64,000 nucleotides of DNA from Pyrinomonadaceae bacterium (GTDB lineage Bacteria > Acidobacteriota > Blastocatellia > Pyrinomonadales > Pyrinomonadaceae): positions 3,938 to 67,937 of the forward strand of contig JAVEEA010000072.1 in the NCBI GenBank assembly GCA_030840675.1, written 5' to 3'. Both the position numbers and the translations under genes were made by a program. Each line of letters begins with the position of its first letter. The stretch's first letter is position 1. This document shows positions 20,522 through 59,316 of this stretch, piece by piece. The notes under the pieces are model-generated. The model worked only from the letters and a program-made list of their open reading frames with translations. It did not search any database and was not told where the DNA came from.

Positions 20522-20537
20522 CGGTATGCAAAATGCT
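20522..20537 (+). promoter_or_regulatory. candidate sigma-54 (-24/-12) promoter of the eCIS operon
   Basis: CGGTATGCAAAATGCT has GG and GC at the exact consensus spacing of TGGCACG-N4-TTGCW, with 4 further matches. It lies 86 nt upstream of the first eCIS start. Chance matches are expected in a window this size. Confidence 0.25.
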
Positions 20538-20622
20538 CTGTACCCTCGCGCGCGTTGCCATGCGGCGCCGGCCTGAAACCAGCAGCCACCGGTGAAGCGT
20601 CACTCAAAAGGAGGGTCCGTGT

Positions 20623-21192
20623 GTGGCCGACTTCACCGTCATCTCGGCGGTTTCAGACACTCTCAGAGTAATGCTCGATGCGGCCATCAAGGCGAAGGTC
20701 GCGGCTGGCGCGGCTGCCTTTCTCAATGTTGAAAGTCTACCGAACAGTCCCACGCTCACGATTTTTTTGTTTGAAGTCGGTGAAGATCCCAGCGCACGCA
20801 ACCAGGCTCGCGTTCGCGAAACAACGCCGCCGAACATGAGCATCAGAAAGCCGCCCGTCACTCTGTTGTTGCGATATCTGTTGACTCCCTGGGGAGGCGA
20901 CGCGGTTACCGAACAAAAGATTCTGGGGATCACAATCCAGACTCTTTACAACCACGCAATTCTAAGCGGCCCGGTACTGCAGGGAGTGCTCAACCCAACC
21001 GACGCCGCGCTCAAAGTAACTTTGTCGCCGCTGAGCCTGGAAGAAAAGGCGCGCGTTTGGAACACCATGCAGAAAGCGTTTCGCCTATCACTTTCTTACG
21101 AAGTGCGCGTGGTAAATCTTGACGCCGACGACGGTGAAAGCTTCAAACCAGTGACCCGGCGAACTGTCGCGGAGGAAGGCGCAATAAGTTGA
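20623..21192 (+). CDS. Pvc16_N/DUF4255 protein (Afp16-like tail cap/terminator)
   Basis: GTG start behind AAAAGGAGGG. The N-terminus ISAVSDTLRVMLD ... TIFLFEVGEDP ... LLLRYLLTPWG follows the DUF4255 pattern. Confidence 0.8.
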   Translation: MADFTVISAVSDTLRVMLDAAIKAKVAAGAAAFLNVESLPNSPTLTIFLFEVGEDPSARNQARVRETTPPNMSIRKPPVTLLLRYLLTPWGGDAVTEQKILGITIQTLYNHAILSGPVLQGVLNPTDAALKVTLSPLSLEEKARVWNTMQKAFRLSLSYEVRVVNLDADDGESFKPVTRRTVAEEGAIS

Positions 21193-21914
21193 TGACGACG
21201 TGGCGTAACTTGCCGGGCGAAAAGCTGGAAATGTACAGCCCGATCGGTTTGATACCTACGGATGTCTTTACCTCCAAGGAGCCGTTCGGGCGAATGAAGG
21301 TGATGCTGGACAGGCGTGAGAATGATGGCCCGTGGCGGTTGACCGATATCAAGGAGGTAAGGACCGCTAGCGGCGTAATTGCTTATCCGGGGTTAGGACG
21401 CGGTGCCATGGTGATGGGCCAACCGCCGCGTCGCTATCGTGTCAGAGTCGAAGCAGAGTTCTATTTGCCGCTGTACACAAAAACGGTCGGCGGCACGCTG
21501 GAGGGAATCGAGTTTGACGGCTTTGCTTACAACGACGCGCTGCCGCCGGACAACTATCCGAAGCAAGCGTCCGAGTTTCCCGCTTATCTCGAAGCGGTGT
21601 TGCGGAAACTGTGGCTGGCGCCGGCGCCGAACTATGCGTTTCCCAACCATGTGCGCGTTTTGCGTGGAGACGTGGTTGACGGGACCACCGGGCTGGCGGT
21701 GAGCGGGGCTGAAGTGAGTTGGGGAAATAAGGAGACGGCGTTAACGGACGACAAGGGCGCATTCGGTTTGCCGTTGCGTGTCAAAAAAAAAGAGGAGCTG
21801 ACGGACCTGCAAAAGATCGACGCCAGCGACCGGCAAGCAACGCCACGATTGGGAATGAAAGAGATCATCATTCCTGAAGCTGTGGGAAACAACCTAACCA
21901 TAACTATCTCTTGA
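21192..21914 (+). CDS. eCIS-associated hypothetical protein with carboxypeptidase-regulatory-like C-terminal segment
   Basis: ATG overlaps the upstream TGA (TGATG). VLRGDVVDGTTGLAVSGAEVSWGNKETALTDDKGAFGL resembles CarboxypepD_reg-type beta-sandwiches. Confidence 0.55.
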   Translation: MTTWRNLPGEKLEMYSPIGLIPTDVFTSKEPFGRMKVMLDRRENDGPWRLTDIKEVRTASGVIAYPGLGRGAMVMGQPPRRYRVRVEAEFYLPLYTKTVGGTLEGIEFDGFAYNDALPPDNYPKQASEFPAYLEAVLRKLWLAPAPNYAFPNHVRVLRGDVVDGTTGLAVSGAEVSWGNKETALTDDKGAFGLPLRVKKKEELTDLQKIDASDRQATPRLGMKEIIIPEAVGNNLTITIS

Positions 21915-21926
21915 GAGGAAGAAAAC

Positions 21927-24470
21927 ATGCCTGAATATCTAAGTCCTGGTGTTTACGTTGAAGAGATCGACGCGGGGCCGAAGCCGATTGAAGGCGTCAG
22001 TACGAGCACGTGCGGCGCGCTAGGAATCACTGCGCGCGGACCGACGTCGGGCAAGCCTGAACTCGTCACCAGCTTTGCCGAATTTCAACGCAAGTTTGGC
22101 GGCTTCTTGCCTGAGCCGCTGCCGGCCCTGGCGAATGGTTGGGCACTCAACGAGGCAGAGGGCGGACGCTGGTGGCAGTTTCCACTGTCGGTCAAGGGCT
22201 TCTTCGACAACGGTGGGCAACGGCTTTACGTCAAGCGCGTCTTTAGCAGCACCGCGACCACCGCCGCGGTTGAGTTAGGCCATGGTCTCGCGAGCGAAAT
22301 ACTCCGCGATGCACCGGCGGCGGCGACGGAGTTGCGCCTGCGCCACACTATCGGCATTGAGAACGGGACCGCTATTCAGTTGATAGTTAACGGACAAGCG
22401 GCCGGCAACTTCACGGTGCAAAGCTACAGCGCGGCTGGCGCGGTCGTCCTCGACAATCCAGTCGGACAGGATATTAAGGGTGGTCGCGATTTTGTTCAGA
22501 TCATAGCGCGTACGGCGACCGCTGCTGGCCCACCGGACGAGCGTCTTACTGTGCGCGCGAAGGCGAGCGGCAGTTGGGGTGGAGACGAAAATAGCGAGAC
22601 GGGAATTCTGGCCGGTAATGGCCTGCGCGTGCGCGTGCGACCGGAAGTTGCGGCTTCGCTGAAATTGCTCGCGTCGCCGGTTGCGGGCGGTAGTCCGGCA
22701 AGTACCGCTGTTCTGGTGCAGGGGCCGGTGGGCGCTACGGTAATTGAAGTGAGAGGAGTCGAAGGTCTCACCAACGGTGACACTGTTTCGGTTGACGGCG
22801 CTGAATACGTCGTGTCGGCTGTGACGGCGGCACGGTTCGACATCGCTCCCTCCGGCGCTCCTCCGCCGGCTGGTCCACTGCCCGCCGGAACCGAAGTGAG
22901 AGAAAGTGGACAATTGCGCGCGCGCCTCGCCGCTCCCGCAACCACCACCGATGCCTTCGTCATTGTCGACACAGTAACCGGTCTAACCAATGGCGACACA
23001 GTAGTGATCGGCGCGAATAGTTACGTCATTGCAAACGTGACGACCGCGCGCTTAACGGTCACCCCCGCGGTGCCCAGCGGCGATCCGTGGGAACCGGGCA
23101 CCGTTATTCGCCGGCTGCGGCCTGCTTATGACACCGGCACCCCCGGGCTCATCGTCAGCGTGCAAAACGCCGCGCAGCTTTACCCGGGCGCGCTCGTCGA
23201 ACTCGATAATGGCACAGACAAAGAGCAACGCGTCGTCGACTCGATCAATGGTGAGTCGGTAACGCTCTCGGGCCCCAACCTCGCTAACAATTATTTCGAA
23301 GGACACCGGCTGCGGCTGATCGAGGTCGAGATCGGCGCGCGTTACCTGCATAACTATCTAGTGGCCGCCGAAGAGATCCTTTCCAACCTGCGCCTCGTTG
23401 ACGATGGTGGTCCAAATTATATTGTGCGCCGCGTCAATGAAGAGTCGAAGCTGTTCGATCTCGAAGCGGGCGCGGACTTCGCGGGCGCAGTAGACACGTT
23501 TGCCGAACTGCCTAGTTTGCCGCTGCCCAGCGCCGCGGCCCCCAACGGTCCGCAAATGAGTGCCTGGTGGAACTTGACGGGTGGTGCGGACAACCTCGAA
23601 GGCTTAACGGTTGACGATTTCGTCGGTGTGCAGGACGGCGGTGAACGTTCGACCGGCGTTCAGTCGTTGGAGTACATCGATGAAATTTCGATCTGTATGG
23701 CGCCCGGGATGTGGTCGTCCACAATTCAATCGGCGCTCATCATTCATTGCGAGACTCTGAAAGACCGATTTGCCATTCTCGATCCTCCGGGCAACCTCGA
23801 CATTGAAGACGTGCGCGTTTTCCGCGAGCCGCTGGACACGAAGTATGCGGCGCTTTATTACCCGCACATTGAAGTGCGCGACCCTTCGCTGAAAAGAAAT
23901 GTAGCCGTTGGTCCGTCGGGACACATGGCCGGGATTTACGCCCGCGTCGATGTGGAGCGAGGCGTGCACAAGGCGCCGGCGAATGAAGTGATTCGCGGCA
24001 TTACCAGGATCGCGGACGATGTGACCAAGCGAGAACAGGATCTGCTCAATCCGCGAAACATAAACGTCCTGCGGTTCTTCCCGGGACGCGGCAATCGCGT
24101 CTGGGGCGCGCGCGTCGTTACCTCCGACGCCGCCTGGAAGTACATCAACGTGCGCCGGCTCTTCATCTTCGTGGAGGAGTCGATCGATGAGGGCACGCAA
24201 TGGGTTGTCTTTGAGCCCAACGACGAGCCGCTCTGGGCGCGCGTGCGCGCGACGATCAACAACTTCCTTACCAGCGTCTGGCGCACTGGCGCGCTTCAGG
24301 GTGCGAAACCCGATGAAGCGTTCTTCGTCAGGTGTGACCGCACCACCATGACCCAGGACGACATCGACAACGGCCGGTTGATCTGCCTGGTCGGTATCGC
24401 GCCAGTGAAGCCGGCGGAATTCGTCATCTTCCGTATCCAGCAGAAGACGCTGGAAAACAAGGTCAGCTAA
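21927..24470 (+). CDS. contractile tail sheath protein (long form, 847 aa)
   Basis: Canonical sheath N-terminus MPEYLSPGVYVEEID. The C-terminal domain contains RFAILDPP ... YYPHIEV ... GHMAGIYARVDVERGVHKAPAN ... NVLRFFPGRGNRVWGAR. Confidence 0.92.
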   Translation: MPEYLSPGVYVEEIDAGPKPIEGVSTSTCGALGITARGPTSGKPELVTSFAEFQRKFGGFLPEPLPALANGWALNEAEGGRWWQFPLSVKGFFDNGGQRLYVKRVFSSTATTAAVELGHGLASEILRDAPAAATELRLRHTIGIENGTAIQLIVNGQAAGNFTVQSYSAAGAVVLDNPVGQDIKGGRDFVQIIARTATAAGPPDERLTVRAKASGSWGGDENSETGILAGNGLRVRVRPEVAASLKLLASPVAGGSPASTAVLVQGPVGATVIEVRGVEGLTNGDTVSVDGAEYVVSAVTAARFDIAPSGAPPPAGPLPAGTEVRESGQLRARLAAPATTTDAFVIVDTVTGLTNGDTVVIGANSYVIANVTTARLTVTPAVPSGDPWEPGTVIRRLRPAYDTGTPGLIVSVQNAAQLYPGALVELDNGTDKEQRVVDSINGESVTLSGPNLANNYFEGHRLRLIEVEIGARYLHNYLVAAEEILSNLRLVDDGGPNYIVRRVNEESKLFDLEAGADFAGAVDTFAELPSLPLPSAAAPNGPQMSAWWNLTGGADNLEGLTVDDFVGVQDGGERSTGVQSLEYIDEISICMAPGMWSSTIQSALIIHCETLKDRFAILDPPGNLDIEDVRVFREPLDTKYAALYYPHIEVRDPSLKRNVAVGPSGHMAGIYARVDVERGVHKAPANEVIRGITRIADDVTKREQDLLNPRNINVLRFFPGRGNRVWGARVVTSDAAWKYINVRRLFIFVEESIDEGTQWVVFEPNDEPLWARVRATINNFLTSVWRTGALQGAKPDEAFFVRCDRTTMTQDDIDNGRLICLVGIAPVKPAEFVIFRIQQKTLENKVS

Positions 24471-24513
24471 AGAGTCGGGGTCAAACCCTGGCTCATAACT
24501 AAAGAGGACAACT

Positions 24514-24975
24514 ATGCCTGTATATCGAGACGACCCATACGCGGGATACAACTTCGAGGTCGTAGTCACTGGCATCAGCGACGACGGCAAAGCGGTCAAG
24601 GGTTCATTCGCCGAAGCTTCGGGACTCGAGGCGGCGATGGATCCGATCGAATACCGCAACGGCAGTGAAGACATCACGGTGCGCAAGCTGCCGGGCTTGA
24701 AAAAGTTTACCAACATCACGCTCAAGCGCGGCGTGACCGGGGACCTGGCCTTCTGGAATTGGATCGTTCAGGGAATGAACGGAACGATATTGCGTACTGA
24801 AGGTTCGATTCTTCTGCTCAACGAAGCGAAGCAGGAGGTGATGCGCTGGAACTTCAAACGTGCCTGGATTACTAAGTGTACCCAACCAAGCATGAATGCG
24901 AAAAACAACGAGGTGGCGATGGAGACGGTGGAAATTTGCCATGAGGGCCTCTCCGTTGACGGACAGACCGGATGA
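24514..24975 (+). CDS. tail tube protein (T4 gp19-like / Afp1-like)
   Basis: YAGYNFEVVVTGISDDG ... FAEASGLEA ... IEYRNG ... NITLKRGV is the typical eCIS/T4 gp19 tube pattern. Confidence 0.9.
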   Translation: MPVYRDDPYAGYNFEVVVTGISDDGKAVKGSFAEASGLEAAMDPIEYRNGSEDITVRKLPGLKKFTNITLKRGVTGDLAFWNWIVQGMNGTILRTEGSILLLNEAKQEVMRWNFKRAWITKCTQPSMNAKNNEVAMETVEICHEGLSVDGQTG

Positions 24976-27121: not shown

Positions 27122-27160
27122 CAGAGGAACTGTAGCAGCAATGATTGAGAGGCGTAGCTG

Positions 27161-38650: not shown

Positions 38651-38750
38651 CAACCAAAGGTTCGGAGTTGCAACTTGAATGTCGGCGCAGAGCCCGCCGG
38701 CGTTAGACGACCGGTGGTGGTGACGTTTCCGTTCACGCAAGGAGATCAGA

Positions 38751-50010: not shown

Positions 50011-50074
50011 TCGCCAAGGTTCGTGGCTGTGCGAAGTAGCAGCTGCAACTAAACAAACGTTTGCAATCGAACGC

Positions 50075-52204: not shown

Positions 52205-53374
52205 GTGCCGTGGCCTGACATTAATTCTTACGGCGATCGACTTGTCTCGCTGCACGTCCGCATAGGGCAGCGGCGTTACTCTGCCTTTAGATTTTGGGGA
52301 GCAGCGGGATTGGTAACCGCGGTGTTACTGGACCTCCTGCTCGCGCACCATTACCGACTCCCTGTTTGGCCCACGGCGGCGAGCATCGTCTTTGCCTTCT
52401 TCACGGCTTACGTCTCAGCCTGCGCGACAAAGCTAATATCCGGTCAGGAGAATTTCACTTTCTACCAGGCTTTGATCTCCGTACCGCTAGCGACGTGTGC
52501 TTTCACCTGGTTACTGAGTCAACCAATTTTGCTTTATCTCGACGTAACAATAATCAGTGTGGGTTCGGCGGCGGTGCTGGGCCGGATTGGGTGTCTGCAG
52601 GTGGGTTGCTGTCACGGCCGACCGTACCGCTTTGGCGTTCGCTATCGCGCTGAACATGCCGCCGCGGGATTCACTTCACAACTAGTGGGCGCGCGTTTAT
52701 TTCCAATACAAATCGTCGAAGGCCTTTGTGCGGGGGTGCTGGTAGTTGTTGGCTGTTTCATGATTTGGCAGCGCTATCCGCCTGGGGCGGCCGCTGGTTG
52801 GTTTGTTTCCGGCTATTGCCTGACGCGATTCTGCTTCGAGTTTGCGCGTTGGCCTGCCAACTACCAATTCAAATCGGGACTGTCGCCATATCAAGGGATT
52901 TCCCTTGCGCTCGTTTTGTTCTCAGTCAGTCTCGAGTGGGTTGGCGTGCTGCCGTTTCAATTCTGGCAGGAGTTGACGGCCGCCGGTTTGCTGTTGGCAA
53001 CCGCTGTTGTTGTGCTTGAGCGGCGCCTGCGAAGTTTCGAAAAATCTTTGAGTCAACCCGATCATATTCGAGAATTGACGAGTGCGCTCAATGCGACCCG
53101 GCGCGCGACTGACAGCAACTGCAACTACGCAGGCATTGTAGTGACAACGACGACCCTTGGCTTGCGGATCTCGGCAGCTCGGATCCACGGACCGACAGGC
53201 GACGTGCTTCATTACGCTCTCTCTTCACGATCCGGAAAATTGAGCGCCGCAACGGTTGATTACCTGTTGAAGGCGATCCTGCGACTCCAGAGTATCGGCG
53301 AGCGAACGGTGATGGTCGAAGGGAACGCCGGCGTCATTCACTTCTTGATGCACCGCCAGGCGCACGAGCCATGA
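52205..53374 (+). CDS. Lgt-family (prolipoprotein diacylglyceryl transferase-like) membrane protein with extra C-terminal domain
   Basis: GTG start. It is multi-TM, with an Lgt-like core GRIGCLQVGCCHGRPYRFGV ... LFPIQIVEGL. About 110 aa of soluble C-terminal extension follow. Confidence 0.65.
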   Translation: MPWPDINSYGDRLVSLHVRIGQRRYSAFRFWGAAGLVTAVLLDLLLAHHYRLPVWPTAASIVFAFFTAYVSACATKLISGQENFTFYQALISVPLATCAFTWLLSQPILLYLDVTIISVGSAAVLGRIGCLQVGCCHGRPYRFGVRYRAEHAAAGFTSQLVGARLFPIQIVEGLCAGVLVVVGCFMIWQRYPPGAAAGWFVSGYCLTRFCFEFARWPANYQFKSGLSPYQGISLALVLFSVSLEWVGVLPFQFWQELTAAGLLLATAVVVLERRLRSFEKSLSQPDHIRELTSALNATRRATDSNCNYAGIVVTTTTLGLRISAARIHGPTGDVLHYALSSRSGKLSAATVDYLLKAILRLQSIGERTVMVEGNAGVIHFLMHRQAHEP

Positions 53375-53530: not shown

Positions 53531-56500
53531 ATGAGCCTATCCTTCGACAAACAGACGTTGGCTGAGCAGGAGGATTTGGCGGCTTCCTTGCGGCCGGCCG
53601 CGGCGGCGCTGACGACTGCAACACCGGCGCACAGTACCGATCCCAGCGCACGGCAAACAAGTTCCAGTGCGACCGCGAATGGTCCTGCCGCTTCGTCGTT
53701 TCAAAGTACGCCTAACCTGCAGTCCGCTTTTGGGAACGCTGCTATTGCCCAATCACTAAGTCAGCAAAGCTCGGCAAATGAACCGGGCTCTCATGTTGGT
53801 GGTCCGGCCTCTTTCGAAAATGCCCGCCAGCAGTTTGGTTACGGTAACGGCGCCGTCGCGCGCGCAAATCTGTCGGTGGGAACCGGTTTGCAGTCGCACC
53901 CGGCAACTTCCGGAAATCCAGTCGCAAGCGCCGCAAGTTCGGCCTCACCACAACCATCACTGACTGGACTACCAGCGATCAATAACGCGGGCGCGCTTGC
54001 ACCCGACGTGCGTTCCGTGCCTCAAGTCCCGCAGACTGAGGTTGGCCCCCCGACCCCCGGGACAGGAAACCAATTGCCTTCAGCAACAGGCGTTGGCCCA
54101 GTCGCGTCCCCAAATTCTGAAGGCCCAGTCTCGCCAGAGACACCGCCCCGTCCAGCCGGTGCCCAGACCAGCGCGCCCGCAACCGTTGGGCCGCCAGCGG
54201 AACAGACAACATCAGATCGTTCCGCAAAGGAACCGTCAGAGCGCGCTGCCAGCAGTGTCGCTGAGACGGGTGCTTCCCCCAGCGGTCCGGAAAATTCTGT
54301 TAAAGGTGACGGCCCAGGTTTGAATAGCGAACAAGCCGTGGAGACGGCGGGTGCGTCAGGCGACAATGCAGGAACGAGCCTTACTGCTCTTGACGTACCC
54401 GAGACGCCTGAGGTCGACACGCAACCCGCCATTGATACCGAGCTGGTCGCGAATGCCGCACCCAACCTGCAAACAGCGATCGCGCAAGTAAGGTCAACGA
54501 TTGCGCAGAAGAAAACGCAAATTCGGACGGCCGCCGCGGCAGCGAAAGATGCGCTGCACACTCAAGCCGCGACTAAACGACAAGAGGTAAGCAACGCCGC
54601 CAGTGAACTGGTGCAGCGAGCGAGAACTGACGTTGCGCAAAGTCGCTCGCAAGTTTCGTCTATCATCGGCGAGCAACGTGCAGTGGTGTCGCGGACTCTA
54701 GCGGTACAAAAGGAAACTACGCATCAGGGCGTAACGCGAGAGTCGCAGCGCCTTGGTACTGAAGCCGCGAAACTGAGCGTGTCGGTAATGAGTGTGGCCC
54801 GCGATCGGACCAGCGCCGCTGCCGCGCTTGGCGTCGCGCAATCCACTCGCGCGCGCACCGAAGTCGCGAGGCAATCCGCCGAAGCTCGTCGGCGAGGCGC
54901 TAACAAAGCGCATTCCATACGCGACGAAGATCCGGAGCGGGCACAGACACAACAATTTGCCGTGCTTCAAGTTGCTGAAGAACAGGCGCAGCAGATTACC
55001 ACTACCGGTCCTGAGATTGAGCAGTTCGCGCTTGACCGGGCCGGCGAGATTGCTACCAGTTTTTCAGCCCAGGCGATACAGGTTGCCACGGGAATCAATA
55101 GTGCAGTGCCCGAAGTGCAGGCGTCGGTGCTCAGCTTGAGTAACCATGCCGATGGGCACATGGATCGGCTGGCGCAGACTACGCTCGGTTCTTTGGCTGG
55201 TTTGGAACAGCGTCTGATGCGTCAACTGGACGAGCTGGAAGCAGCGTCACTGCTCCAGGCTCGCGGACTCGCCCGAGAAATTCTGCCGCAGATCGACGCC
55301 GCCGAGCAGGCTGGTGTGGCGCAGCTTGCTTCGTTAACTCAAAGGGCCCTGGCGGCGCTCGACGATTCAGCCGGCGACACGATTGCAGAATTAACTGCCG
55401 CTGATACTCCGGGCGAAGCTCAGGTGGGCACACGCCAGGAAGAAATTGCGCAACAGACTCTCACTCATTTTCAGACGCTCACTCATTATCTCGACACTCA
55501 AATATTGGAGATAGCCGCGCATGCAAACGACGGGTTCACGCAAATCCAGGCGCAGTTGAACGGCGCGCTCACCGCTACCCAGGAAGCGGCACGCTCAGGA
55601 GTTAACTCGCTGGTGCAGCAGCTGAATCAAGGCTTCGAACTGGCGCGCAACGAAGTGGTAGGGAAGGCGACTGGAATAGTCGATCAGTCGTTGGCGAAGT
55701 TCGGCGAACCGGTAAACAAAGCGATCGCGGAGTTTCAAAGCACCTATGCAAAAGGCGAACGGGATGTAATCGCGGGAGTGACTGACAGTCTGCTCTCGAA
55801 TGACCGGGCACTCGATGAAATGGGTACCCACTGTAAGTTGACCGAAGCCGCCGACCGCGCCAGGGAGGAATACGATCGCCCCACCTGGCAAAAAGTACTC
55901 ATCGCTGTAGGCAAAGCGGTGCTCTATCTCGCCGCGGCGCTTCTTTTTACTTTTGTGGTGGCGGTCGTGATTTTCGTGGGCGCGATTATTCTGGGAATTA
56001 CCGGCGTCACGTTCGCCATTGCGTTTGCGATTGCCGTGGTTTTGGTGGCGATTGGTTTTGTCATTTATGAATTTGTTCAGCGGCTCATTGCTTACAAAGC
56101 GGAACACGGTGCCATCGATAGCTTTTGGGAGGCACTCGGTGTTTCGGCAGCATTACTTTTGATAAGCGTCGCCAGTCTTACCGGCATACCACAAATTATC
56201 GAAGGCCTCAGGGGTAAACGTTTCTTCAGCGACATTCCACTCACTTCACAGGAACGCTACGATCTCGTAATCGGCGGCGTTCTTCAACTGGTCTTGATCG
56301 TCGTTGCCAGATCTTTCAGGGGACGTGGGGGACGTACCGGGCGCGCAGGCCCCGTAGAAGAACCGCTGCCGGTGCGTCCTCCAATTGAAGAAGAACCGCC
56401 GGTGGTCCTCGTTGACCCGTGGGCCGTCCTCGCCAGGCGATTTGGTCTCAGCGCCGAGGTGATCGAAATCCTTCGTACCAGCGGCATCGACGTTACCGTG

Positions 56501-57370
56501 TTCGAGCGCATCCTCGCCCGTGGCGTCAGTGGCGAAACGGTTGGTCTGATTACTAGTTTGCACGGCCGCGCCGGCGTCGGTGTGCTCGATCGGATGTCTG
56601 CTGACGGCTTTACCGACGGCGATATTCTGCGGCTTGTCGACGACGCTGACCGGCTGGGCCAGTTGGACGCTCTCAGCGATCTGACTGCGCGCGGGATAGC
56701 CCAGAGGCTGCTGCGCAATGGCTTCGACTCGACCGAGCTGATTCTCTTGCTACAGGAGTTGCATCAGGCGGGCATCCAGACAATCGACGGACTGATGCGA
56801 GCCGGTGTACAAAAGGCCCCGGCCATCGAAGCCGCGCGACTGGCAAGACAAATTGGTGCGGTCGAAGAAGTGACCCAACTGGCAACGAGTGGTAATCTTG
56901 AGAATCCGCTGGGCCTGCGAAACTTCCTGAGAGAAGTGGCTGCTGAACTAGAAGTTGGTAATCAAGGCAAACTCACCCAGTTGCGTGAAGCTGCGCAGAG
57001 ATCTTCGGGTGGCCCAGTGGCAATCGAGAGATCAGCACGGGGCCAGGCTGATATTATCGACTTCGGTCGGCAAGAAGCGCTGCAGATGAAAGTGGTGAGC
57101 AGCCCCGAGCCTGCTCAGGTTGGCGTAAGGGTTAACGAGGCTGCGAGCCAGCTTCGTGGCGAGAGAGGTGAGGTTCCGCCGGCCGGGTTTAAGACGATCG
57201 CCGATATCCGCATCACGAACCCCGACAATCCGATGTTTCCGCTTAACCGTGCGCAGTTACTACTGCAGTTAAGAAATAATGGCGTGACGCAGGCATCGCT
57301 GGCAGGCGTCGGCGAAGTGCATGTCACCAATGGGAGCGGCACACACGTCTACACTCCTAACGAGTTTTAA
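53531..57370 (+). CDS. 1279-aa coiled-coil/TM protein sharing the cargo N-terminal leader motif; putative cargo/effector 3
   Basis: The LQSAFGNAAIAQSL leader resembles those of the DUF4157 proteins. Order: Pro/Ser/Ala-rich region, about 450 aa of Ala/Gln/Glu-rich helical region, two to three TM helices (aa ~790-880), then a ~370-aa C-terminal globular region. Confidence 0.75.
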   Translation: MSLSFDKQTLAEQEDLAASLRPAAAALTTATPAHSTDPSARQTSSSATANGPAASSFQSTPNLQSAFGNAAIAQSLSQQSSANEPGSHVGGPASFENARQQFGYGNGAVARANLSVGTGLQSHPATSGNPVASAASSASPQPSLTGLPAINNAGALAPDVRSVPQVPQTEVGPPTPGTGNQLPSATGVGPVASPNSEGPVSPETPPRPAGAQTSAPATVGPPAEQTTSDRSAKEPSERAASSVAETGASPSGPENSVKGDGPGLNSEQAVETAGASGDNAGTSLTALDVPETPEVDTQPAIDTELVANAAPNLQTAIAQVRSTIAQKKTQIRTAAAAAKDALHTQAATKRQEVSNAASELVQRARTDVAQSRSQVSSIIGEQRAVVSRTLAVQKETTHQGVTRESQRLGTEAAKLSVSVMSVARDRTSAAAALGVAQSTRARTEVARQSAEARRRGANKAHSIRDEDPERAQTQQFAVLQVAEEQAQQITTTGPEIEQFALDRAGEIATSFSAQAIQVATGINSAVPEVQASVLSLSNHADGHMDRLAQTTLGSLAGLEQRLMRQLDELEAASLLQARGLAREILPQIDAAEQAGVAQLASLTQRALAALDDSAGDTIAELTAADTPGEAQVGTRQEEIAQQTLTHFQTLTHYLDTQILEIAAHANDGFTQIQAQLNGALTATQEAARSGVNSLVQQLNQGFELARNEVVGKATGIVDQSLAKFGEPVNKAIAEFQSTYAKGERDVIAGVTDSLLSNDRALDEMGTHCKLTEAADRAREEYDRPTWQKVLIAVGKAVLYLAAALLFTFVVAVVIFVGAIILGITGVTFAIAFAIAVVLVAIGFVIYEFVQRLIAYKAEHGAIDSFWEALGVSAALLLISVASLTGIPQIIEGLRGKRFFSDIPLTSQERYDLVIGGVLQLVLIVVARSFRGRGGRTGRAGPVEEPLPVRPPIEEEPPVVLVDPWAVLARRFGLSAEVIEILRTSGIDVTVFERILARGVSGETVGLITSLHGRAGVGVLDRMSADGFTDGDILRLVDDADRLGQLDALSDLTARGIAQRLLRNGFDSTELILLLQELHQAGIQTIDGLMRAGVQKAPAIEAARLARQIGAVEEVTQLATSGNLENPLGLRNFLREVAAELEVGNQGKLTQLREAAQRSSGGPVAIERSARGQADIIDFGRQEALQMKVVSSPEPAQVGVRVNEAASQLRGERGEVPPAGFKTIADIRITNPDNPMFPLNRAQLLLQLRNNGVTQASLAGVGEVHVTNGSGTHVYTPNEF

Positions 57371-58179
57371 TGGAAGACAGGATGAGAAATCTTTGGGTTA
57401 CGCGCGATGATCCAATCGCTGGTTGGGTTGCGGACCTGACTCCGTTACAACCTGAGCCGCAGGTTTTGCTGGACTGGTTGCAAAAGGTGTTGGCGGAAGG
57501 CGAGCGCTGTGAAGTATTCAAGGTTCGCGCCGCCCCTCTGGCTGATTATGTTTGGGCCAAAGATGGTCCACTAGCCTCTTATCTCAGACAGAGTTTTGCT
57601 GACACCGGAGTGGTGGACCTGTTCCATTTTTCTACTTCCCAGCTGAAGGTAATGGGAGACTCGCAGTTTCAGGCCTTAGCGCGCATGGCTTACTTTGACG
57701 CTGAGGGTCGACTGGCTGAAGCGGATGTCGCTGATCTGGGGTTGCTGCTGCGCAGCGTTCGTCCAGCCGATTTCGAAGTTAACTGGGGCCTATTCCATCG
57801 CTGCTTCCCGCTGCTGATCACGGGTCCAAAGGTAGTTTTAGGAAACCTGCAACCAGCGATCGCAGCGGATAAGCCGGAGGCCATCCGAGTCCGGTTTCGG
57901 ATCTTCTCTGACATTTGGTTTCCCTGGGTGCTTGGTTTTCTGGAGGACTCGTTTGACGTCAACCGCATGTATGACAATCGCCTTCTTTCCGAACGACACA
58001 CGCCGCGTTTGAACCGCTTTCTTTCGTTCGTCAGTGACCTCACCAAAGCGCTCGGGGGAACCTGGCAACTCGATAAGGAGGAATCGAACACAGTCTCGGC
58101 CTTCATGCTGGCGGACGAAGGCATACGTTTCGACGTGGAACCTCCTGCCGTATGGCCCATTGACCAAGACTCCCGCTGA
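57370..58179 (+). CDS. hypothetical protein, candidate immunity/accessory partner of the 1279-aa protein
   Basis: The ATG shares one nucleotide with the upstream TAA (TAATG). 269 aa, cytoplasmic-looking, no motif recognised. Confidence 0.6.
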   Translation: MEDRMRNLWVTRDDPIAGWVADLTPLQPEPQVLLDWLQKVLAEGERCEVFKVRAAPLADYVWAKDGPLASYLRQSFADTGVVDLFHFSTSQLKVMGDSQFQALARMAYFDAEGRLAEADVADLGLLLRSVRPADFEVNWGLFHRCFPLLITGPKVVLGNLQPAIAADKPEAIRVRFRIFSDIWFPWVLGFLEDSFDVNRMYDNRLLSERHTPRLNRFLSFVSDLTKALGGTWQLDKEESNTVSAFMLADEGIRFDVEPPAVWPIDQDSR

Positions 58180-58233
58180 TCAAATTTCAGCAGCGCGGAT
58201 GACGCTTCGTCGCGCATGGCATCAGCCACGCAG

Positions 58234-59316
58234 TTAGACGTTAACCTTTCTGTTGTGCTTCGTCGTCGTGCCCGCGTTCGTTGCCGGATTAGTGGCGGAA
58301 ACTTCGTTGCCGTCGTTACCGGAAAAAGAGTCGCCTTCCTCAGGCAGTTCCGCGGGCCTGATCCCATACTTGCGCATCAACTCAAAAAACGCGCGCCGAG
58401 GTTTGCCGCTGGCACGGGCGGCGTGGGCGATGTTGCCATTGTTTTGCCGCAGTACCTCCTGCAGGTATTCACGTTCAAAGCGACTTACCAGTTCGCGCTT
58501 TGCTTCCTTGAGCGGCCGCTCACTCACAAACACGGTAACCGGTGCCGCTTGCTTTTCCGGTTCTTCAACCAGCAAAGGCAGATCCTGAGGTTGTGCCGGC
58601 TCTTCCAGGCGCAGGCAGGTCAGGTATTGCATGCAATTCTTGAGTTCGCGAATGTTACCCGGCCAGTTGTAGCTGCACAGCAACTGCATCGCGCTTTCAC
58701 TGAAGCGGAGTTTTGGCAGACGATACATGCGCGCGTAGGAGTCGACATAGTTCGACATCAAGAGCGGAATGTCGTCACGACGCTCGCGCAAGGGAGGTAC
58801 TTCGATCGGTACTACGCGCAGCCGGAAAAACAGATCTTCACGGAAACGTCCTTCGCGCATTGCGGCGCTCAAGTCCGCGTTGCTGGCGGCAATGAAGCGA
58901 ACATTGGAACGCCTGATTCGCGTTTCACCCAGGCGGCGATACTCCCCGTCCTCGAGATATCGCAGCAGCTTCACCTGACTGGCCAACGACAGGGAATCGA
59001 TCTCGTCAAGGAACAGGGTCCCGCGTTCGGCTTCCGCTACCAGCCCTTCGCTCTGCGGCCGGGCTCCGGTGAAGGCGCCCCCGACGTGTCCGAAAAATTC
59101 ATTCTCAAACAACTCAGTGGGCAGGGCGCCGCAGTTCACCGGTACAAAAGCCGCGTGTCGTCGTTCACTGCGTCCGTGAATAAAGCGCGCGTAAAGTTCT
59201 TTACCCACTCCGCTTGGTCCGCTGATCAGAACTTCCACATCGGTGGGTGCAATCTTCAAAATCGTTGCGATCAACTTGCGGTGGGCCAAGCTGCGACCAA
59301 TTAATGAGACAGTCAT
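58234..59316 (-). CDS. sigma-54-dependent transcriptional activator (bEBP) lacking an N-terminal sensory/receiver domain
   Basis: The AAA+ sigma-54 interaction domain starts at residue ~10: Walker A GPSGVGKE, GAFTGA loop (GHVGGAFTGA), Walker B TLFLDEID, FREDLFFRL and NWPGNIRELKN. A C-terminal Fis-type HTH is present (NNGNIAHAARASGKPRRAFFELMRKYGI). Confidence 0.9.
   Translation of the reverse strand: MTVSLIGRSLAHRKLIATILKIAPTDVEVLISGPSGVGKELYARFIHGRSERRHAAFVPVNCGALPTELFENEFFGHVGGAFTGARPQSEGLVAEAERGTLFLDEIDSLSLASQVKLLRYLEDGEYRRLGETRIRRSNVRFIAASNADLSAAMREGRFREDLFFRLRVVPIEVPPLRERRDDIPLLMSNYVDSYARMYRLPKLRFSESAMQLLCSYNWPGNIRELKNCMQYLTCLRLEEPAQPQDLPLLVEEPEKQAAPVTVFVSERPLKEAKRELVSRFEREYLQEVLRQNNGNIAHAARASGKPRRAFFELMRKYGIRPAELPEEGDSFSGNDGNEVSATNPATNAGTTTKHNRKVNV

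What the first reader, a model, noticed from the sequence alone, without database searches (positions are those of the whole stretch)
20522..59316. Complete eCIS (phage-tail-like injection machine) locus with cargo island and its own sigma-54 activator
Seen: about 26 kb of same-strand ORFs (20623-46962), mostly joined by 1-4 nt start/stop overlaps. They carry hallmark motifs of a Pvc16_N cap, 2 sheaths, 2 tubes, a LysM tube initiator, gpD, gpV, PAAR, gp25, 2 baseplate-J proteins, a P2-gpI-like protein and an Afp15-type AAA+ ATPase. I see no capsid, portal or terminase genes and no TssM/TssL/ClpV. Established: that gene set defines an extracellular contractile injection system rather than a prophage or T6SS. 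Inference: the order differs from the Afp/PVC paradigm, with the cap first, alternating sheath-tube pairs and PAAR before gp25. The host looks Acidobacteriota-like, a group where I know of no characterised eCIS particle.
Basis: partly seen in the sequence, partly recalled or inferred. Interest (0 to 1): 0.8.

Follow-up and report, generated by a model that had tools for sequence, protein, structure and literature searches.

The report
Sigma-54-controlled phage-tail-like injection machine locus
A soil Acidobacteriota genome carries a complete gene set for a phage-tail-like protein injector with toxin cargo and its own sigma-54 on-switch; the injector type is already catalogued, but the conserved switch gives a testable handle on when such machines are made.

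Summary
Window 20623-46962 (+) encodes a complete Afp/PVC-superfamily contractile injection system (CIS). It has a cap, two sheath-tube pairs, a LysM tube initiator, a split gpD/gpV spike, PAAR, gp25, two Afp11, Cis12, three Cis13-like proteins and a WHD+AAA ATPase. Three putative cargo proteins follow. The 64 kb holds no capsid, portal, terminase or canonical T6SS genes. The source is a Pyrinomonadaceae MAG (Acidobacteriota). Gene content fits the published subtype IIa. The same layout recurs in at least 75 genomes and is already catalogued (for example Leptothrix cholodnii), so the locus is a new member of a known kind. "Extracellular" is not established. The closest solved sheaths come from a membrane-anchored archaeal system and the cytoplasmic Streptomyces system. 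The sigma-54 claim gained real support. A receiver-less activator with GAFTGA and HTH_8 sits at 58234-59316 (-). Relatives of it flank CIS genes in 29 of 80 metagenome loci. A -24/-12 element lies 34-108 nt before the cap gene (or its tblastn match) in 10 loci and about 480-660 nt before it in five distant ones. All 12 copies of the palindrome TGGACA-N4-TGTCCA in 254 kb lie within 400 nt upstream of that element. Interest is moderate.

The parts
20321..20336 (+). Putative enhancer (UAS) palindrome TGGACAAAAACATCCA, 201 nt upstream of the promoter-like element. A weaker second site, CGGACTAAAAACTCCAC, lies about 85 nt upstream of that element.
   Evidence: It is the only match in the 64-kb window at up to 3 mismatches. 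Across 15 loci, 12 of 12 such palindromes lie within 400 nt upstream of the sigma-54 element.
20522..20537 (+). Sigma-54 (-24/-12) promoter-like element CGGTATGCAAAATGCT, 101 nt before the cap start codon.
   Evidence: It is weak on its own (7 of 11 consensus positions, with GG and GC kept). Elements scoring 9-10 of 11 sit at the same position (-100 to -108) in L089, L090 and L091. Elements scoring 8-11 of 11 lie between the activator gene and the cap gene in 11 metagenome loci.
20623..21192 (+). Cis16/Afp16 cap (tail terminator)
   Evidence: Pvc16_N, E 1.9e-35
21189..21914 (+). Conserved 241-aa protein of unknown function that always follows the cap gene
   Evidence: A 220-240 aa ORF occupies the same position in L001, L002, L089-L091, L109, L110 and L120. 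The only domain hit is a sub-threshold CarboxypepD_reg match.
21927..24470 (+). Large sheath protein (847 aa, with an insertion of about 450 aa)
   Evidence: Phage_sheath_1 and Phage_sheath_1C. Best solved matches are 9ezm (6e-115) and 8bky (2e-108).
24514..24975 (+). Tube protein (gp19/Hcp-like)
   Evidence: Phage_T4_gp19, E 5e-40; TIGR02241
24972..26618 (+). Second sheath-family protein (548 aa), probably a sheath adaptor layer
   Evidence: Phage_sheath_1 and Phage_sheath_1C; 8bky, E 1e-56
26615..27121 (+). Second tube-family protein
   Evidence: Phage_T4_gp19, E 6e-32
27161..27340 (+). Conserved 59-aa ORF in the position that afp6 holds in Afp
   Evidence: Gene callers called a 59-63 aa ORF here in L001, L002, L005 and L089-L091. 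tblastn finds 33-42% identity in L109, L110 and L120. It has no family hit.
27346..28005 (+). Cis7/Afp7 tube initiator with LysM
   Evidence: CIS_tube, E 4e-28, and LysM, E 1.5e-8
28021..29214 (+). gp27/gpD-like half of the split spike (Afp8 N-terminal part)
   Evidence: NCBIfam VgrG_rel, E 4e-25, below its cutoff. tblastn matches the annotated 'VgrG/Pvc8 family' gene of pHBOR03.
29214..29855 (+). gp5/gpV-like spike half
   Evidence: Phage_base_V, E 1.3e-27
29871..30272 (+). PAAR tip (Afp10)
   Evidence: PAAR_motif, E 4e-12
30297..30698 (+). gp25 wedge protein (Afp9)
   Evidence: GPW_gp25, E 1.4e-22
30695..32878 (+). Afp11/Cis11 copy a
   Evidence: Baseplate_J; TIGR02243, E 7e-61
32875..34959 (+). 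Afp11/Cis11 copy b
   Evidence: Baseplate_J; TIGR02243, E 7.5e-67
34956..37100 (+). Cis12 (P2 gpI-like). The true start is ATG 34956, which gives 714 aa.
   Evidence: Tail_P2_I; CIS12_fam, E 4e-44. A 714-aa gene is called in L001 and L002.
37232..38650 (+). Cis13-like paralog a (472 aa)
   Evidence: CIS13_fam N-terminal domain, E 1.6e-15. Conserved in 75 of 80 genome loci.
38751..40685 (+). Cis13-like paralog b (644 aa). Only about residues 40-250 are conserved; the C-terminal part is variable, Cys-rich and Lys/Ala-rich.
   Evidence: CIS13_fam, E 9e-11. tblastn coverage is confined to about residues 40-250 in most relatives. Sequence shown.
40682..41842 (+). Cis13-like paralog c (386 aa)
   Evidence: CIS13_fam, E 6e-9. 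The AF2 model's best fold match is Anabaena tCIS baseplate protein All3314 (7b5h_AA-AC, prob 0.99, E 1e-3).
41797..42468 (+). Unknown protein of about 209-223 aa (probable start 41839)
   Evidence: Detected only in Acidobacteriota relatives, 7 loci. No family hit.
42487..44754 (+). Clade-specific 755-aa protein that always precedes the ATPase; function unknown
   Evidence: 97 homologues. Present in 80 of 80 related loci next to the ATPase. In the AF2 model the C-terminal domain (410-755) has pLDDT above 90, but it has no convincing fold match.
44773..46962 (+). Cis15/Afp15 AAA+ ATPase with an N-terminal winged-helix domain
   Evidence: AAA, E 4e-26, and WHD, E 3e-25
47055..49352 (+). Cargo 1: disordered N-terminal domain + DUF4157 (residues 200-273) + unknown C-terminal domain
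   Evidence: eCIS_core, E 5e-27. N-terminal motif QSALGNAAV.
49573..50010 (+). 145-aa ORF after cargo 1 (candidate immunity or accessory protein)
   Evidence: Stays adjacent to the cargo 1 homologue in L010, at 72% identity. No family hit.
49991..52117 (+). Cargo 2: disordered N-terminal domain + DUF4157 (residues 322-398) + C-terminal domain with a second HExxH (HEFTH)
   Evidence: eCIS_core, E 5e-27. N-terminal motif LQASFGNAAV. C-terminal sequence.
52205..53374 (+). Lgt-family membrane protein with about 6 TM helices (candidate immunity or accessory protein for cargo 2)
   Evidence: LGT, E 5e-14. TM prediction. It lies near the cargo 2 homologue in L009-L013.
53531..57370 (+). Putative cargo 3 (1279 aa): the same N-terminal motif, a long helical region and 3-4 TM helices at 803-929. 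It has no DUF4157.
   Evidence: Motif LQSAFGNAAI. Pairwise BLASTP of the N-terminal domains against cargo 1 and cargo 2 gives E 5e-6 and 2e-5. TM prediction. Found only in very close relatives.
57370..58179 (+). 269-aa ORF whose start overlaps the end of cargo 3 by 1 nt
   Evidence: 69% identical and adjacent to the activator gene in L092. No family hit.
58234..59316 (-). Receiver-less sigma-54 enhancer-binding protein (PspF-like architecture)
   Evidence: Sigma54_activat, E 1e-60, beginning at residue 5; AAA_lid_14; HTH_8. GAFTGA at residues 80-85. Relatives of it flank CIS genes in 29 of 80 loci.

Best explanation
This is one roughly 39-kb functional unit in a Pyrinomonadaceae (Acidobacteriota) genome.

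Structural operon. It encodes a contractile injection system of the Afp/PVC superfamily whose gene content fits subtype IIa of Chen et al. 2019.

Regulation. The receiver-less activator at 58234-59316 (-) binds as a dimer to the palindrome TGGACA-N4-TGTCCA upstream of the cap gene. It uses ATP to open sigma-54 RNA polymerase at the -24/-12 element at 20522-20537, and this transcribes the operon.

Assembly. The products build a cap, a sheath-tube column and an adaptor layer from a second sheath-tube pair. The baseplate contains a LysM initiator, gp25, two Afp11, Cis12 and three Cis13-like peripheral proteins. The spike is a split gpD/gpV pair tipped with PAAR.

Cargo. The WHD+AAA ATPase loads cargo proteins that share a disordered N-terminal tag (LQxxFGNAA). 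Two of them are DUF4157 proteins and the third is a 1279-aa protein with TM helices. Sheath contraction then drives tube, spike and cargo into a target.

Shown here: the gene identities, the synteny, the activator-CIS linkage and the conserved promoter and palindrome.

Inferred: that the activator binds this palindrome, that the N-terminal tag drives loading, that there is a third cargo, and the immunity roles of the 145-aa, Lgt-like and 269-aa proteins.

Unresolved: where it fires. I put release as a free extracellular particle at about 0.5 and cell-associated action (cytoplasmic or envelope-anchored) at about 0.5.
For: Identity and completeness:
- All core families were found at or above the curated cutoffs, except the gpD half.
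- The subtype IIa criteria from PMC6899500 are met: two afp11, a split afp8, PAAR present, divergent afp12/13 present.
- The layout cap, ~230-aa protein, sheath, tube, sheath, tube, ~60-aa ORF, Cis7, gpD, gpV, (PAAR), gp25, Cis11a/b recurs in L089-L091. Their upstream neighbours are unrelated to each other, which fixes the left border.
- Cis11a through the ATPase is syntenic in 75-80 of 80 genome loci from Acidobacteriota, a Burkholderiales MAG and many Actinomycetes.

Regulation:
- The activator has GAFTGA and HTH_8 and no receiver domain.
- 29 of 80 metagenome loci selected only by activator similarity (40-86% identity) carry CIS genes within 10 kb. The activator is either directly upstream of the cap gene on the same strand or convergent after the ATPase and cargo, as in the window.
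- Sigma-54 elements scoring 9-10 of 11 sit at -100 to -108 in L089-L091. Shuffling gives P <= 0.03 for such an element anywhere in each region and <= 0.0015 at that position.
- Elements scoring 8-11 of 11 lie between the activator gene and the cap gene in 11 further loci.
- 12 of 12 palindrome matches in 254 kb fall in the 2.4% of sequence that lies within 400 nt upstream of the promoter. Eight of them are in loci that were not used to derive the motif.

Cargo:
- The architecture of disordered N-terminal domain, DUF4157 and variable C-terminal domain matches the experimentally defined AlgoCIS cargo design. There the N-terminal domain is the loading signal and is shared among the cargoes of one system (bioRxiv 10.64898/2026.05.27.728243).
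- The FGNAA motif is shared by the three window proteins and by DUF4157 proteins in L010, L012 and L013.
Against: - The window's own -24/-12 element is degenerate (7 of 11). Taken alone it is not significant (P 0.42 anywhere in the region, 0.02 at that position). A strict consensus search found nothing.
- rpoN could not be checked, because only the window is available.
- No binding or expression data exist.
- The palindrome consensus was partly derived from four of the 15 loci that were tested.
- The third cargo rests on a short motif in low-complexity sequence. The BLASTP E-values were computed without composition correction.
- Subtype placement rests on gene content only. No Afp11 tree against dbeCIS was made.
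- The one characterised IIa cluster (pHBOR03) has a different gene order, a single sheath and a single Cis13-like gene, and it lacks the 755-aa family.
Confidence: 0.8

Rival explanations
1. The machine is not extracellular. It works while attached to the producer. Either it is anchored to the cytoplasmic membrane and fires outward like the haloarchaeal T6SS-like system, or it sits free in the cytoplasm and fires into the producer's own membrane as in Streptomyces, Chloroflexota and Deinococcota.
For: - The closest solved sheaths are from exactly these systems: 9ezm at 6e-115 and 8bky at 2e-108, against Pvc2 at 9e-52 and Afp2 at 4e-42.
- The subtype IIa gene content matches the archaeal T6SS-like system.
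- Lineage II systems examined by cryo-ET so far are cell-associated.
- No holin or endolysin was detected in or beside the locus.
- Small ORFs after the toxins look like immunity genes, as in contact-dependent antagonism.
Against: - None of the clade-conserved core proteins has a predicted TM helix.
- The candidate haloarchaeal anchor (HBOR_RS17580, my identification of Hbor_38620 from the paper's description) shows no similarity to any window protein tested (BLASTP E 0.19 against the Lgt-like protein; tblastn).
- The two membrane proteins in the locus lie in the variable cargo region and are not conserved with the core.
- Three Cis13-like peripheral proteins, one with a variable C-terminal part, look like target-binding fibres. 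The cytoplasmic Streptomyces system lacks fibres.
- The host is diderm and has no TssJLM-like envelope complex in the window.
Confidence: 0.4
2. The sigma-54 activator is only a neighbour and regulates something else. The promoter-like and palindromic motifs upstream of the cap gene are coincidental.
For: - The activator is convergent to the operon and 38 kb from the promoter.
- The window's -24/-12 match is only 7 of 11.
- About half of the activator-selected loci with at least 8 kb of flank show no CIS gene by tblastn (14 of 26).
- Pfam Sigma54_activat is only weakly enriched in catalogued eCIS operons (odds ratio 1.59, q 0.04; Geller supplement).
Against: - 29 of 80 loci selected by activator similarity alone carry CIS genes within 10 kb. 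Chance co-occurrence with a roughly 30-kb locus type would be well below 1%.
- In 11 loci the activator gene directly precedes the cap gene, with a -24/-12 element scoring 8-11 of 11 in between.
- The palindrome occurs nowhere else in 254 kb.
- The loci without hits are explained by variable cargo between the activator and the ATPase. For example, L108 lies on a 455,919-bp contig, and the P0099 sheath's longest contig has the same length.
Confidence: 0.05
3. It is a defective prophage tail or an R-type tailocin, meaning a bacteriocin that kills by depolarisation without cargo.
For: Sheath, tube, gp25, Baseplate_J, gpV and P2 gpI families are shared with myophage tails and R-pyocins. The pyocin sheath 3j9q matches at 6e-13.
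Against: - The window has no capsid, portal, terminase, integrase, lysis cassette or tRNA.
- The hallmarks absent from tailocins are present: the Pvc16_N cap, an Afp15-type AAA ATPase and DUF4157 cargo proteins.
- Similarity to CIS sheaths is about 100 orders of magnitude stronger than to pyocin or T4 sheaths.
Confidence: 0.03

Closest known systems
Halogeometricum borinquense CIS on pHBOR03 ('archaeal T6SS', subtype IIa; Zachs et al. 2024, PMC11566945; sheath PDB 9ezm)
   Same: It has the closest solved sheath (E 6e-115; 54% identity over the C-terminal 283 residues). It also shares the split gpD/gpV spike, PAAR, gp25, two Afp11, Cis12, one protein with the Cis13-type N-terminal domain, the DUF4255 cap, the AAA ATPase and DUF4157 toxins.
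   Different: - Its gene order differs and it forms two sub-clusters.
- It has one sheath (574 aa) against two (847 and 548 aa), and one Cis13-like gene against three.
- It has no homologue of the 241-aa, 223-aa or 755-aa proteins.
- Its putative 6-TM anchor has no detectable counterpart here.
- It is archaeal, so it has no sigma-54 control.
Streptomyces coelicolor CIS-Sc (subtype IId, cytoplasmic; PDB 8bky, 8bl4, 9gtp; PMC12237407)
   Same: It has the second-closest sheath (E 2e-108) and the same cap, sheath-tube and baseplate modules. Its wedge contains two Cis11 copies and one Cis12.
   Different: IId has a single afp11 gene, a contiguous afp8, no tail-fibre-like genes and the CisA membrane adaptor. 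The window has two afp11 genes, a split afp8 and three Cis13-like genes. No CisA-like bitopic protein stands out among the conserved genes, but CisA was not compared directly.
Catalogued but uncharacterised eCIS loci with the same layout, for example Leptothrix cholodnii SP-6 Lcho_3032-3038 (Geller et al. 2021 Supplementary Data, PMC8213781) and the Streptomyces, Amycolatopsis, Blastocatellia and Burkholderiales loci L009-L091
   Same: Gene order is the same: a 360-aa Sigma54_activat+HTH_8 protein, a small ORF, afp16, an unknown protein, sheath, tube, sheath. The syntenic block Cis11a/b, Cis12, 3x Cis13-like, 755-aa protein and ATPase shares 35-76% identity.
   Different: Cargo genes differ from locus to locus. 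The actinomycete members showed no such activator within the 10-kb flanks fetched, and from general knowledge Actinobacteria lack sigma-54. None has been studied experimentally as far as I could find.
Afp (Serratia entomophila), PVC (Photorhabdus) and AlgoCIS, the characterised extracellular systems
   Same: They share the core families and ATPase-dependent loading of cargo through a disordered N-terminal signal. AlgoCIS cargo also carries DUF4157.
   Different: - They belong to lineage I. Their sheaths are far more distant (E 1e-42 to 1e-52).
- The cap gene is last, not first, and gp25 precedes PAAR.
- They have a single afp11, a contiguous afp8 and a tape-measure gene afp14.
- Regulation is by RfaH-, GerE- or BTAD-type factors, not by sigma-54.
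VasH-type sigma-54 control of canonical T6SS (own knowledge: Vibrio cholerae VasH)
   Same: An enhancer-binding protein encoded beside a contractile secretion machine activates it through sigma-54.
   Different: The machine class differs: there are no TssB/C, TssJLM or ClpV here. The activator here has no N-terminal regulatory domain. The resemblance is recalled from memory, not tested.

Membership tests
Afp/PVC-superfamily contractile injection system ('eCIS' locus in the sense of Chen 2019 and Geller 2021) | Core set present: sheath, gp19 tube, LysM initiator (Afp7), spike (Afp8), gp25 (Afp9), Baseplate_J (Afp11), DUF4255/Pvc16_N cap (Afp16), AAA+ ATPase (Afp15) | tested here: met
   All were found by Pfam or NCBIfam. 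The gpD half of the spike is below the curated cutoff.
Afp/PVC-superfamily contractile injection system ('eCIS' locus in the sense of Chen 2019 and Geller 2021) | No phage head or packaging genes, and no canonical T6SS membrane complex or ClpV nearby | tested here: met
   Pfam and PHROGs scans of most flanking ORFs of at least about 110 aa across the 64-kb window found none. There are no tRNA genes.
Afp/PVC-superfamily contractile injection system ('eCIS' locus in the sense of Chen 2019 and Geller 2021) | DUF4157 (eCIS_core) marker proteins at the 3' end | tested here: met
   Two proteins, each at E 5e-27.
eCIS subtype IIa (Chen et al. 2019) | Two afp11 copies | tested here: met
   30695-32878 and 32875-34959, TIGR02243 at 7e-61 and 7.5e-67. 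Criterion.
eCIS subtype IIa (Chen et al. 2019) | afp8 split into gp27-like and gp5-like ORFs | tested here: met
   28021-29214 (VgrG_rel) and 29214-29855 (Phage_base_V).
eCIS subtype IIa (Chen et al. 2019) | PAAR (afp10) present, and divergent afp12 and afp13 present | tested here: met
   PAAR_motif; CIS12_fam and CIS13_fam N-terminal domains.
eCIS subtype IIa (Chen et al. 2019) | Placement inside the IIa clade of the Afp11 tree | not tested
   No dbeCIS reference sequences were available. The only indirect support is that the nearest solved sheath is from a IIa system.
eCIS subtype IIa (Chen et al. 2019) | afp6 absent (reported for all lineage II subtypes except IIb) | tested here: inconclusive
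   A conserved 59-aa ORF sits in the afp6 position, but it has no detectable similarity to any family.
Extracellular mode of action (eCIS in the strict sense) | Particles released from the producer that act on other cells | not testable with these tools
   This needs EM of supernatant or cryo-ET. No lysis cassette was found, but that is not decisive.
Extracellular mode of action (eCIS in the strict sense) | Tail fibres or receptor-binding proteins at the baseplate periphery | tested here: inconclusive
   There are three proteins with the Cis13-type N-terminal domain, one with a variable C-terminal part. The fold match reaches only the N-terminal part of tCIS All3314. In tCIS and the haloarchaeal system the homologous proteins are proposed to touch membranes.
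Haloarchaeal T6SS-like, membrane-anchored CIS | Conserved 6-TM putative anchor (Hbor_38620 family) linked to the cluster | tested here: not met
   HBOR_RS17580 is my identification of Hbor_38620 from the paper's description. Against the Lgt-like protein BLASTP gives E 0.19. tblastn of the Lgt-like protein found nothing on pHBOR03. The core proteins have no TM helices.
Streptomyces-type cytoplasmic CIS (subtype IId) | Single afp11, contiguous afp8, no fibre genes, CisA adaptor | tested here: not met
   The window has two afp11, a split afp8 and three Cis13-like genes.
Sigma-54 / bacterial enhancer-binding-protein regulon | Activator with an AAA+ sigma-54 interaction domain carrying GAFTGA, plus a DNA-binding HTH | tested here: met
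   Sigma54_activat at 1e-60 and HTH_8 at 3e-6; GAFTGA at residues 80-85.
Sigma-54 / bacterial enhancer-binding-protein regulon | -24 GG / -12 GC promoter upstream of the regulated operon | tested here: met
   The window element scores 7 of 11 with GG and GC kept, at -101. The elements at the equivalent position in relatives score 9-10 of 11, and 11 further loci score 8-11 of 11. It is weak in the window alone.
Sigma-54 / bacterial enhancer-binding-protein regulon | Upstream activator sequence about 50-250 nt upstream of the promoter | tested here: met
   Palindrome TGGACA-N4-TGTCCA at -56 to -240 relative to the promoter; 12 of 12 occurrences in 254 kb lie there. Binding itself is inferred.
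Sigma-54 / bacterial enhancer-binding-protein regulon | rpoN present in the genome | not testable with these tools
   Only the 64-kb window is held.

The most novel reading that the evidence does not exclude
This widespread clade (cap first, two sheaths, three Cis13 paralogs, the 755-aa partner of the ATPase) may be a bacterial counterpart of the haloarchaeal T6SS-like system. On this reading it is a sigma-54-triggered machine that stays associated with a diderm producer and fires cargo carrying a shared N-terminal tag, including a membrane-inserting 1279-aa effector, into neighbouring bacteria without any TssJLM complex. The three Cis13 paralogs would form a heterotrimeric peripheral fibre or foot in place of the homotrimer seen for All3314 in tCIS.
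Probability: 0.2. Interest if true: 0.75.

Novelty: new member of a known kind. Interest (0 to 1): 0.45.

Why it matters
CIS of lineage II are common in soil bacteria, but almost nothing is known about when they are made or what they do. No particle from Acidobacteriota, one of the most abundant soil phyla, turned up as characterised in my literature search. The locus itself adds one more well-preserved member.

The useful result is the regulatory logic, which recurs across diverged CIS loci: a receiver-less sigma-54 activator, a 16-bp palindrome and a -24/-12 promoter. Sigma-54 activator domains appear only as a weakly enriched entry in a supplementary table. Searches of the held library for contractile injection system or eCIS with sigma-54 or RpoN found no paper that discusses this.

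The module offers a direct way to switch such silent clusters on in a cultivable relative or a heterologous host: express the activator. That would allow the mode of action to be tested. It also names three candidate cargo proteins and their shared N-terminal tag for loading experiments.

Tried and rejected
- A strict sigma-54 consensus search in the window gave 0 hits, and a 2-mismatch search gave fewer hits than shuffles. This first suggested there was no promoter. Comparison with relatives overturned that.
- The sigma-70 and terminator scans were at or below the shuffle background and uninformative.
- No tRNA, no Rfam family and no meaningful tandem repeat were found.
- PDB sequence searches found nothing for Cis13-like a, cargo 1 or cargo 2.
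- Pfam scans at E <= 1 of the cargo C-terminal domains, the Lgt C-terminal tail, the Cis13 C-terminal parts and the 59-, 145-, 223- and 269-aa ORFs gave only noise.
- PHROGs gave nothing for the unknown proteins.
- Foldseek of the 755-aa protein's AF2 model gave only Tn5 transposase or integrase cores at E about 1e-3, TM 0.2-0.38 and rmsd 8-10 Å. I do not accept this as a fold assignment.
- I tested whether the Lgt-like 6-TM protein is the counterpart of the haloarchaeal anchor Hbor_38620 and rejected it. LGT is not enriched in catalogued eCIS operons.
- I considered whether the locus belongs to the Streptomyces davawensis CIS group (PMC11126660). This could not be tested because that genome is in none of the collections available here.
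- The 114-kb JGI contig L001 turned out to be a close relative, not the source. Its 755-aa homologue is only 86% identical.
- The + strand ORF 58216-59304 is an antisense shadow of the activator gene and has no Pfam hit.
- Not used: the search of protein representatives and the viral-contig scans.

Full report
**Observation.** On the + strand from 20623 to 46962 lie the following:
- a Pvc16_N cap;
- a conserved 241-aa unknown protein;
- an 847-aa sheath, a gp19 tube, a 548-aa second sheath-family protein and a second gp19 tube;
- a 59-aa ORF;
- a CIS_tube+LysM initiator;
- a gpD-like protein (NCBIfam VgrG_rel only, below its cutoff) and a Phage_base_V spike;
- PAAR and gp25;
- two TIGR02243/Baseplate_J proteins;
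- a Tail_P2_I/CIS12 protein, whose true start is 34956;
- three paralogs that share a CIS13-type N-terminal domain;
- a protein of about 210-223 aa and a 755-aa protein, both of unknown function;
- a WHD+AAA ATPase.

Downstream come two eCIS_core (DUF4157) proteins and a 145-aa ORF. An Lgt-family protein with about six TM helices follows, then a 1279-aa protein with 3-4 TM helices and a 269-aa ORF. A 360-aa Sigma54_activat+AAA_lid+HTH_8 protein converges on the array from the minus strand.

With the refined starts about 11 of 26 junctions overlap, most by 1-4 nt, so 'mostly overlapping' is an overstatement. Most of the larger ORFs in the flanks were scanned. The left flank is housekeeping, and no head, packaging, integrase, T6SS membrane-complex or ClpV gene, tRNA or Rfam family was found in the 64 kb.

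**Source.** The sheath is identical to MDQ1707799.1 (QOJ88_1010), and the activator to QOJ88_1035, on a 69,105-bp contig of a Pyrinomonadaceae bacterium MAG. That family belongs to Acidobacteriota, class Blastocatellia. Close relatives occur on a 114-kb JGI contig and in a second MAG.

**What kind of CIS it is.** Chen et al. 2019 separate subtypes by gene content. Two afp11 genes occur in IIa and IIc. A split afp8 occurs in IIa, IIb and IIc. PAAR is absent only from IIb. Divergent afp12/13 occur in IIa and IIb. The window has all four features, which leaves IIa.

The closest solved sheaths agree with this:
- Halogeometricum borinquense Cis2 (9ezm, E 6e-115), from the only characterised IIa system;
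- Streptomyces CIS-Sc Cis2 (8bky, E 2e-108), subtype IId;
- then Pvc2, Afp2/3, AlgoCIS and the tCIS sheath All3325 at E 1e-40 to 1e-52;
- pyocin and T4 sheaths at E 1e-13 and 1e-5.

The window is not a copy of the haloarchaeal cluster. pHBOR03 has a different order, one 574-aa sheath and one Cis13-like gene. It has no homologue of the 241-, 223- or 755-aa proteins.

**The true relatives.** An alignment of the 755-aa family retrieved 80 genome loci. They come from Pyrinomonadaceae, other Blastocatellia, Terriglobia, a Planctomycetaceae MAG, a Burkholderiales MAG, and many Streptomyces, Amycolatopsis, Kibdelosporangium and Actinoplanes. tblastn with the window proteins shows the block Cis11a, Cis11b, Cis12, Cis13a, Cis13b, Cis13c, 755-aa protein, ATPase in the same order in 75-80 of them, at 35-76% identity.

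Three loci reached through sheath homologues at 57-72% identity show the front half in the same order, from cap to Cis11b, including the roughly 60-aa ORF. Their upstream genes are unrelated to each other, so the cap gene is the left border.

The same layout, headed by a 360-aa Sigma54_activat+HTH_8 gene, is listed for Leptothrix cholodnii (Lcho_3032-3038) in the Geller et al. 2021 supplementary tables. Those tables also list eCIS operons in Acidobacteria. The 'unusual' order is therefore the norm of a catalogued but experimentally untouched clade.

**Regulation.** This is the part that moved most. A strict sigma-54 consensus search in the window found nothing. Aligning the cap-upstream regions of independent relatives changed the picture.

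A GG-N10-GC element sits 100-108 nt before the cap start codon in every case:
- window CGGTATGCAAAATGCT (7 of 11 consensus positions);
- L089 GGGCACGGGGATTGCC (9 of 11);
- L090 TGGCACACGAAATGCT (10 of 11);
- L091 TGGTACGACTGTTGCT (10 of 11).

In mononucleotide shuffles the three relatives' elements have P 0.002-0.03 anywhere in the region and <= 0.0015 at that position. The window element is significant only by position (P 0.02).

I then asked whether the activator is linked to CIS loci in general. A metagenome scan with the activator alone returned 80 loci at 40-86% identity. Of these, 29 (12 of the 26 with at least 8 kb of flank) carry CIS genes detectable with the window proteins. There are two arrangements:
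- the activator gene lies directly upstream of the cap gene on the same strand (L109, L110, L112, L114, L117, L120, L141, L146, L148, L153, L158);
- the activator gene is convergent after the ATPase and cargo, as in the window (L092, L094, L101, L115, L116, L118, and also L013 and L025 among the genome loci).

In the first arrangement a -24/-12 element scoring 8-11 of 11 lies between the two genes in all 11 loci. It sits 34-50 nt before the cap tblastn match in six of them, and about 480-660 nt before it in the five most distant.

A 16-bp palindrome, TGGACA-N4-TGTCCA, occurs upstream of these promoters. Across the 15 loci that contain a cap gene (254 kb) there are 12 matches at up to 3 mismatches. 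All 12 lie within 400 nt upstream of the promoter element, which is 2.4% of the sequence. Eight are in loci not used to define the motif. The window copy is TGGACAAAAACATCCA at 20321-20336, the only match in the window.

The activator starts directly with its AAA+ domain, carries GAFTGA at residues 80-85 and ends in HTH_8. That is the PspF-like, receiver-less architecture. From general knowledge, such activators are usually controlled by a partner protein or by their own expression level.

I conclude that the operon is sigma-54 dependent and that this protein is its dedicated activator. Binding to the palindrome is an inference. The actinomycete members showed no such activator within the 10-kb flanks fetched, and from general knowledge Actinobacteria lack sigma-54, so the module belongs to the Gram-negative branch.

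**Cargo.** The two DUF4157 proteins have long N-terminal regions poor in hydrophobic residues, then DUF4157, then C-terminal domains with no recognisable family. The second contains an additional HEFTH motif. This is the architecture shown experimentally for AlgoCIS cargo. There the disordered N-terminal domain is the loading signal, is shared among the cargoes of one system, and depends on the AAA+ protein.

A six-frame motif scan found LQ(S/A)xFGNAA(V/I) in frame near the N-terminus of both DUF4157 proteins and of the 1279-aa membrane-helix protein. Apart from two out-of-frame chance matches, it occurs nowhere else in the window. Pairwise BLASTP of the N-terminal regions gives E 5e-6 and 2e-5 for the 1279-aa protein against the two others, without composition correction. 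The motif also precedes DUF4157 in L010, L012 and L013, but not in distant systems.

I therefore propose the 1279-aa protein as a third cargo, a membrane-inserting one. This is an inference. Three observations suggest toxin-immunity or toxin-accessory pairs:
- the 145-aa ORF stays next to the cargo 1 homologue in L010;
- the Lgt-like gene stays near the cargo 2 homologue in L009-L013;
- the 269-aa ORF overlaps the end of cargo 3 by one nucleotide.

These pairs would point to bacterial targets. This too is inference. LGT is not enriched in catalogued eCIS operons.

**Mode of action.** It is not. Lineage II systems examined in situ include:
- a thylakoid-anchored system (tCIS);
- the free cytoplasmic systems of Streptomyces, Chloroflexota and Deinococcota;
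- the membrane-anchored, T6SS-like haloarchaeal IIa system.

Evidence against anchoring here:
- None of the clade-conserved proteins has a predicted TM helix.
- The likely haloarchaeal anchor (HBOR_RS17580, six TM helices plus a soluble domain of about 150 aa) is not similar to the Lgt-like protein.
- The two membrane proteins of the locus lie in the variable cargo region.

Evidence for a target-binding periphery:
- There are three Cis13-like proteins. Two are conserved over their full length, and one is conserved only over about residues 40-250 and has a variable C-terminal part.
- The AF2 model of paralog c (pLDDT 74) has as its only credible fold match the N-terminal part of All3314, present as 18 chains in the tCIS baseplate.

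In tCIS and the haloarchaeal system the homologous proteins are thought to touch membranes, so this evidence cuts both ways. I leave the question at roughly even odds.

**Unknowns.** The 755-aa protein has a conserved N-terminal motif (RCTLRIVRxGGWxWG) and a confidently modelled C-terminal domain of about 345 aa, but no convincing structural neighbour. It is probably one of the 'subtype-specific genes' noted by Chen et al.. No tape-measure candidate was identified.

**Verdict.** This is a real, complete and well-delimited CIS locus. It is a new member of a catalogued, uncharacterised clade that fits subtype IIa by gene content. The extracellular label is unproven. The sigma-54 link is supported by comparative evidence and appears not to have been described beyond a line in a supplementary table. 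Interest is moderate.

Noticed in passing
window 27161-27340 (+): A 59-aa ORF (MVSINNLDVRFDVEGDG...) sits between the second tube gene and Cis7, the position of afp6 in Afp. It is conserved as a 59-63 aa ORF in L001, L002, L005, L089-L091, L109, L110 and L120. Chen 2019 reports afp6 as absent from lineage II except subtype IIb.
   Followed up: partly
window 37232-41842 (+): Three tandem paralogs share a Cis13-type N-terminal motif (R-x-x-[FY]-F-x-G-Q-x-L) and keep the same order in at least 75 loci. In tCIS the homologous All3314 is present as 18 chains, three per wedge. The three paralogs might therefore form a heterotrimer, one chain each. Paralogs a and b carry Cys-rich clusters (CRDNCCDKCGDRC; CGCGGSG...CGCGGADCAAC), and paralog b ends in a Lys/Ala/Glu-rich basic tail.
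   Followed up: partly
L163 7397-7711 (+), and 20 other metagenome loci among L092-L171: A roughly 105-aa ORF lies directly downstream of the activator gene on the same strand in 21 of the more distant activator loci. It could be a co-regulator or anti-activator of the receiver-less activator. The window has no counterpart.
   Followed up: partly
window 42487-44754 (+): The 755-aa family has the invariant residues C9, R15, G18, W19, W21 and G22 at the N-terminus, a disordered middle part of variable length and a well-predicted alpha/beta C-terminal domain. It always sits immediately before the ATPase, across phyla. Its function is unknown.
   Followed up: yes
window 52205-53374 (+); L009-L013: An Lgt-family paralog with a C-terminal soluble extension of about 115 aa travels with the cargo 2 homologue in five Blastocatellia loci, although their order changes. 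NCBI annotates it as a bona fide prolipoprotein diacylglyceryl transferase (354 aa, with a later start).
   Followed up: partly
window 51400-51600 (+), cargo 2 C-terminal domain: The C-terminal domain contains a second metalloprotease-like HExxH (LIHEFTHTRHD), in addition to the one in DUF4157.
   Followed up: no
L090 4868-8269; L091 5392-8316: In two distant relatives the gene just upstream of the CIS promoter region is a large beta-propeller fusion protein: TIR+WD40 (1133 aa) in L090 and Peptidase_M48+beta-propeller (974 aa) in L091. Both are reminiscent of conflict or signalling proteins.
   Followed up: no
window 58216-59304 (+): A 362-aa ORF lies antisense to the activator gene. It has no Pfam hit and is almost certainly a shadow ORF.
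   Followed up: yes
window 12135-14051 (+): A SelB selenocysteine-specific elongation factor is encoded in the left flank, so the organism probably uses selenoproteins. No tRNA-Sec was detected in the window.
   Followed up: no
window 59757-63978 (-): Past the activator gene the GC content drops to 0.52-0.53. This region encodes several secreted or membrane proteins (124, 614 and 235 aa) with no family and no homologue in any related locus. They are unrelated to the CIS.
   Followed up: partly
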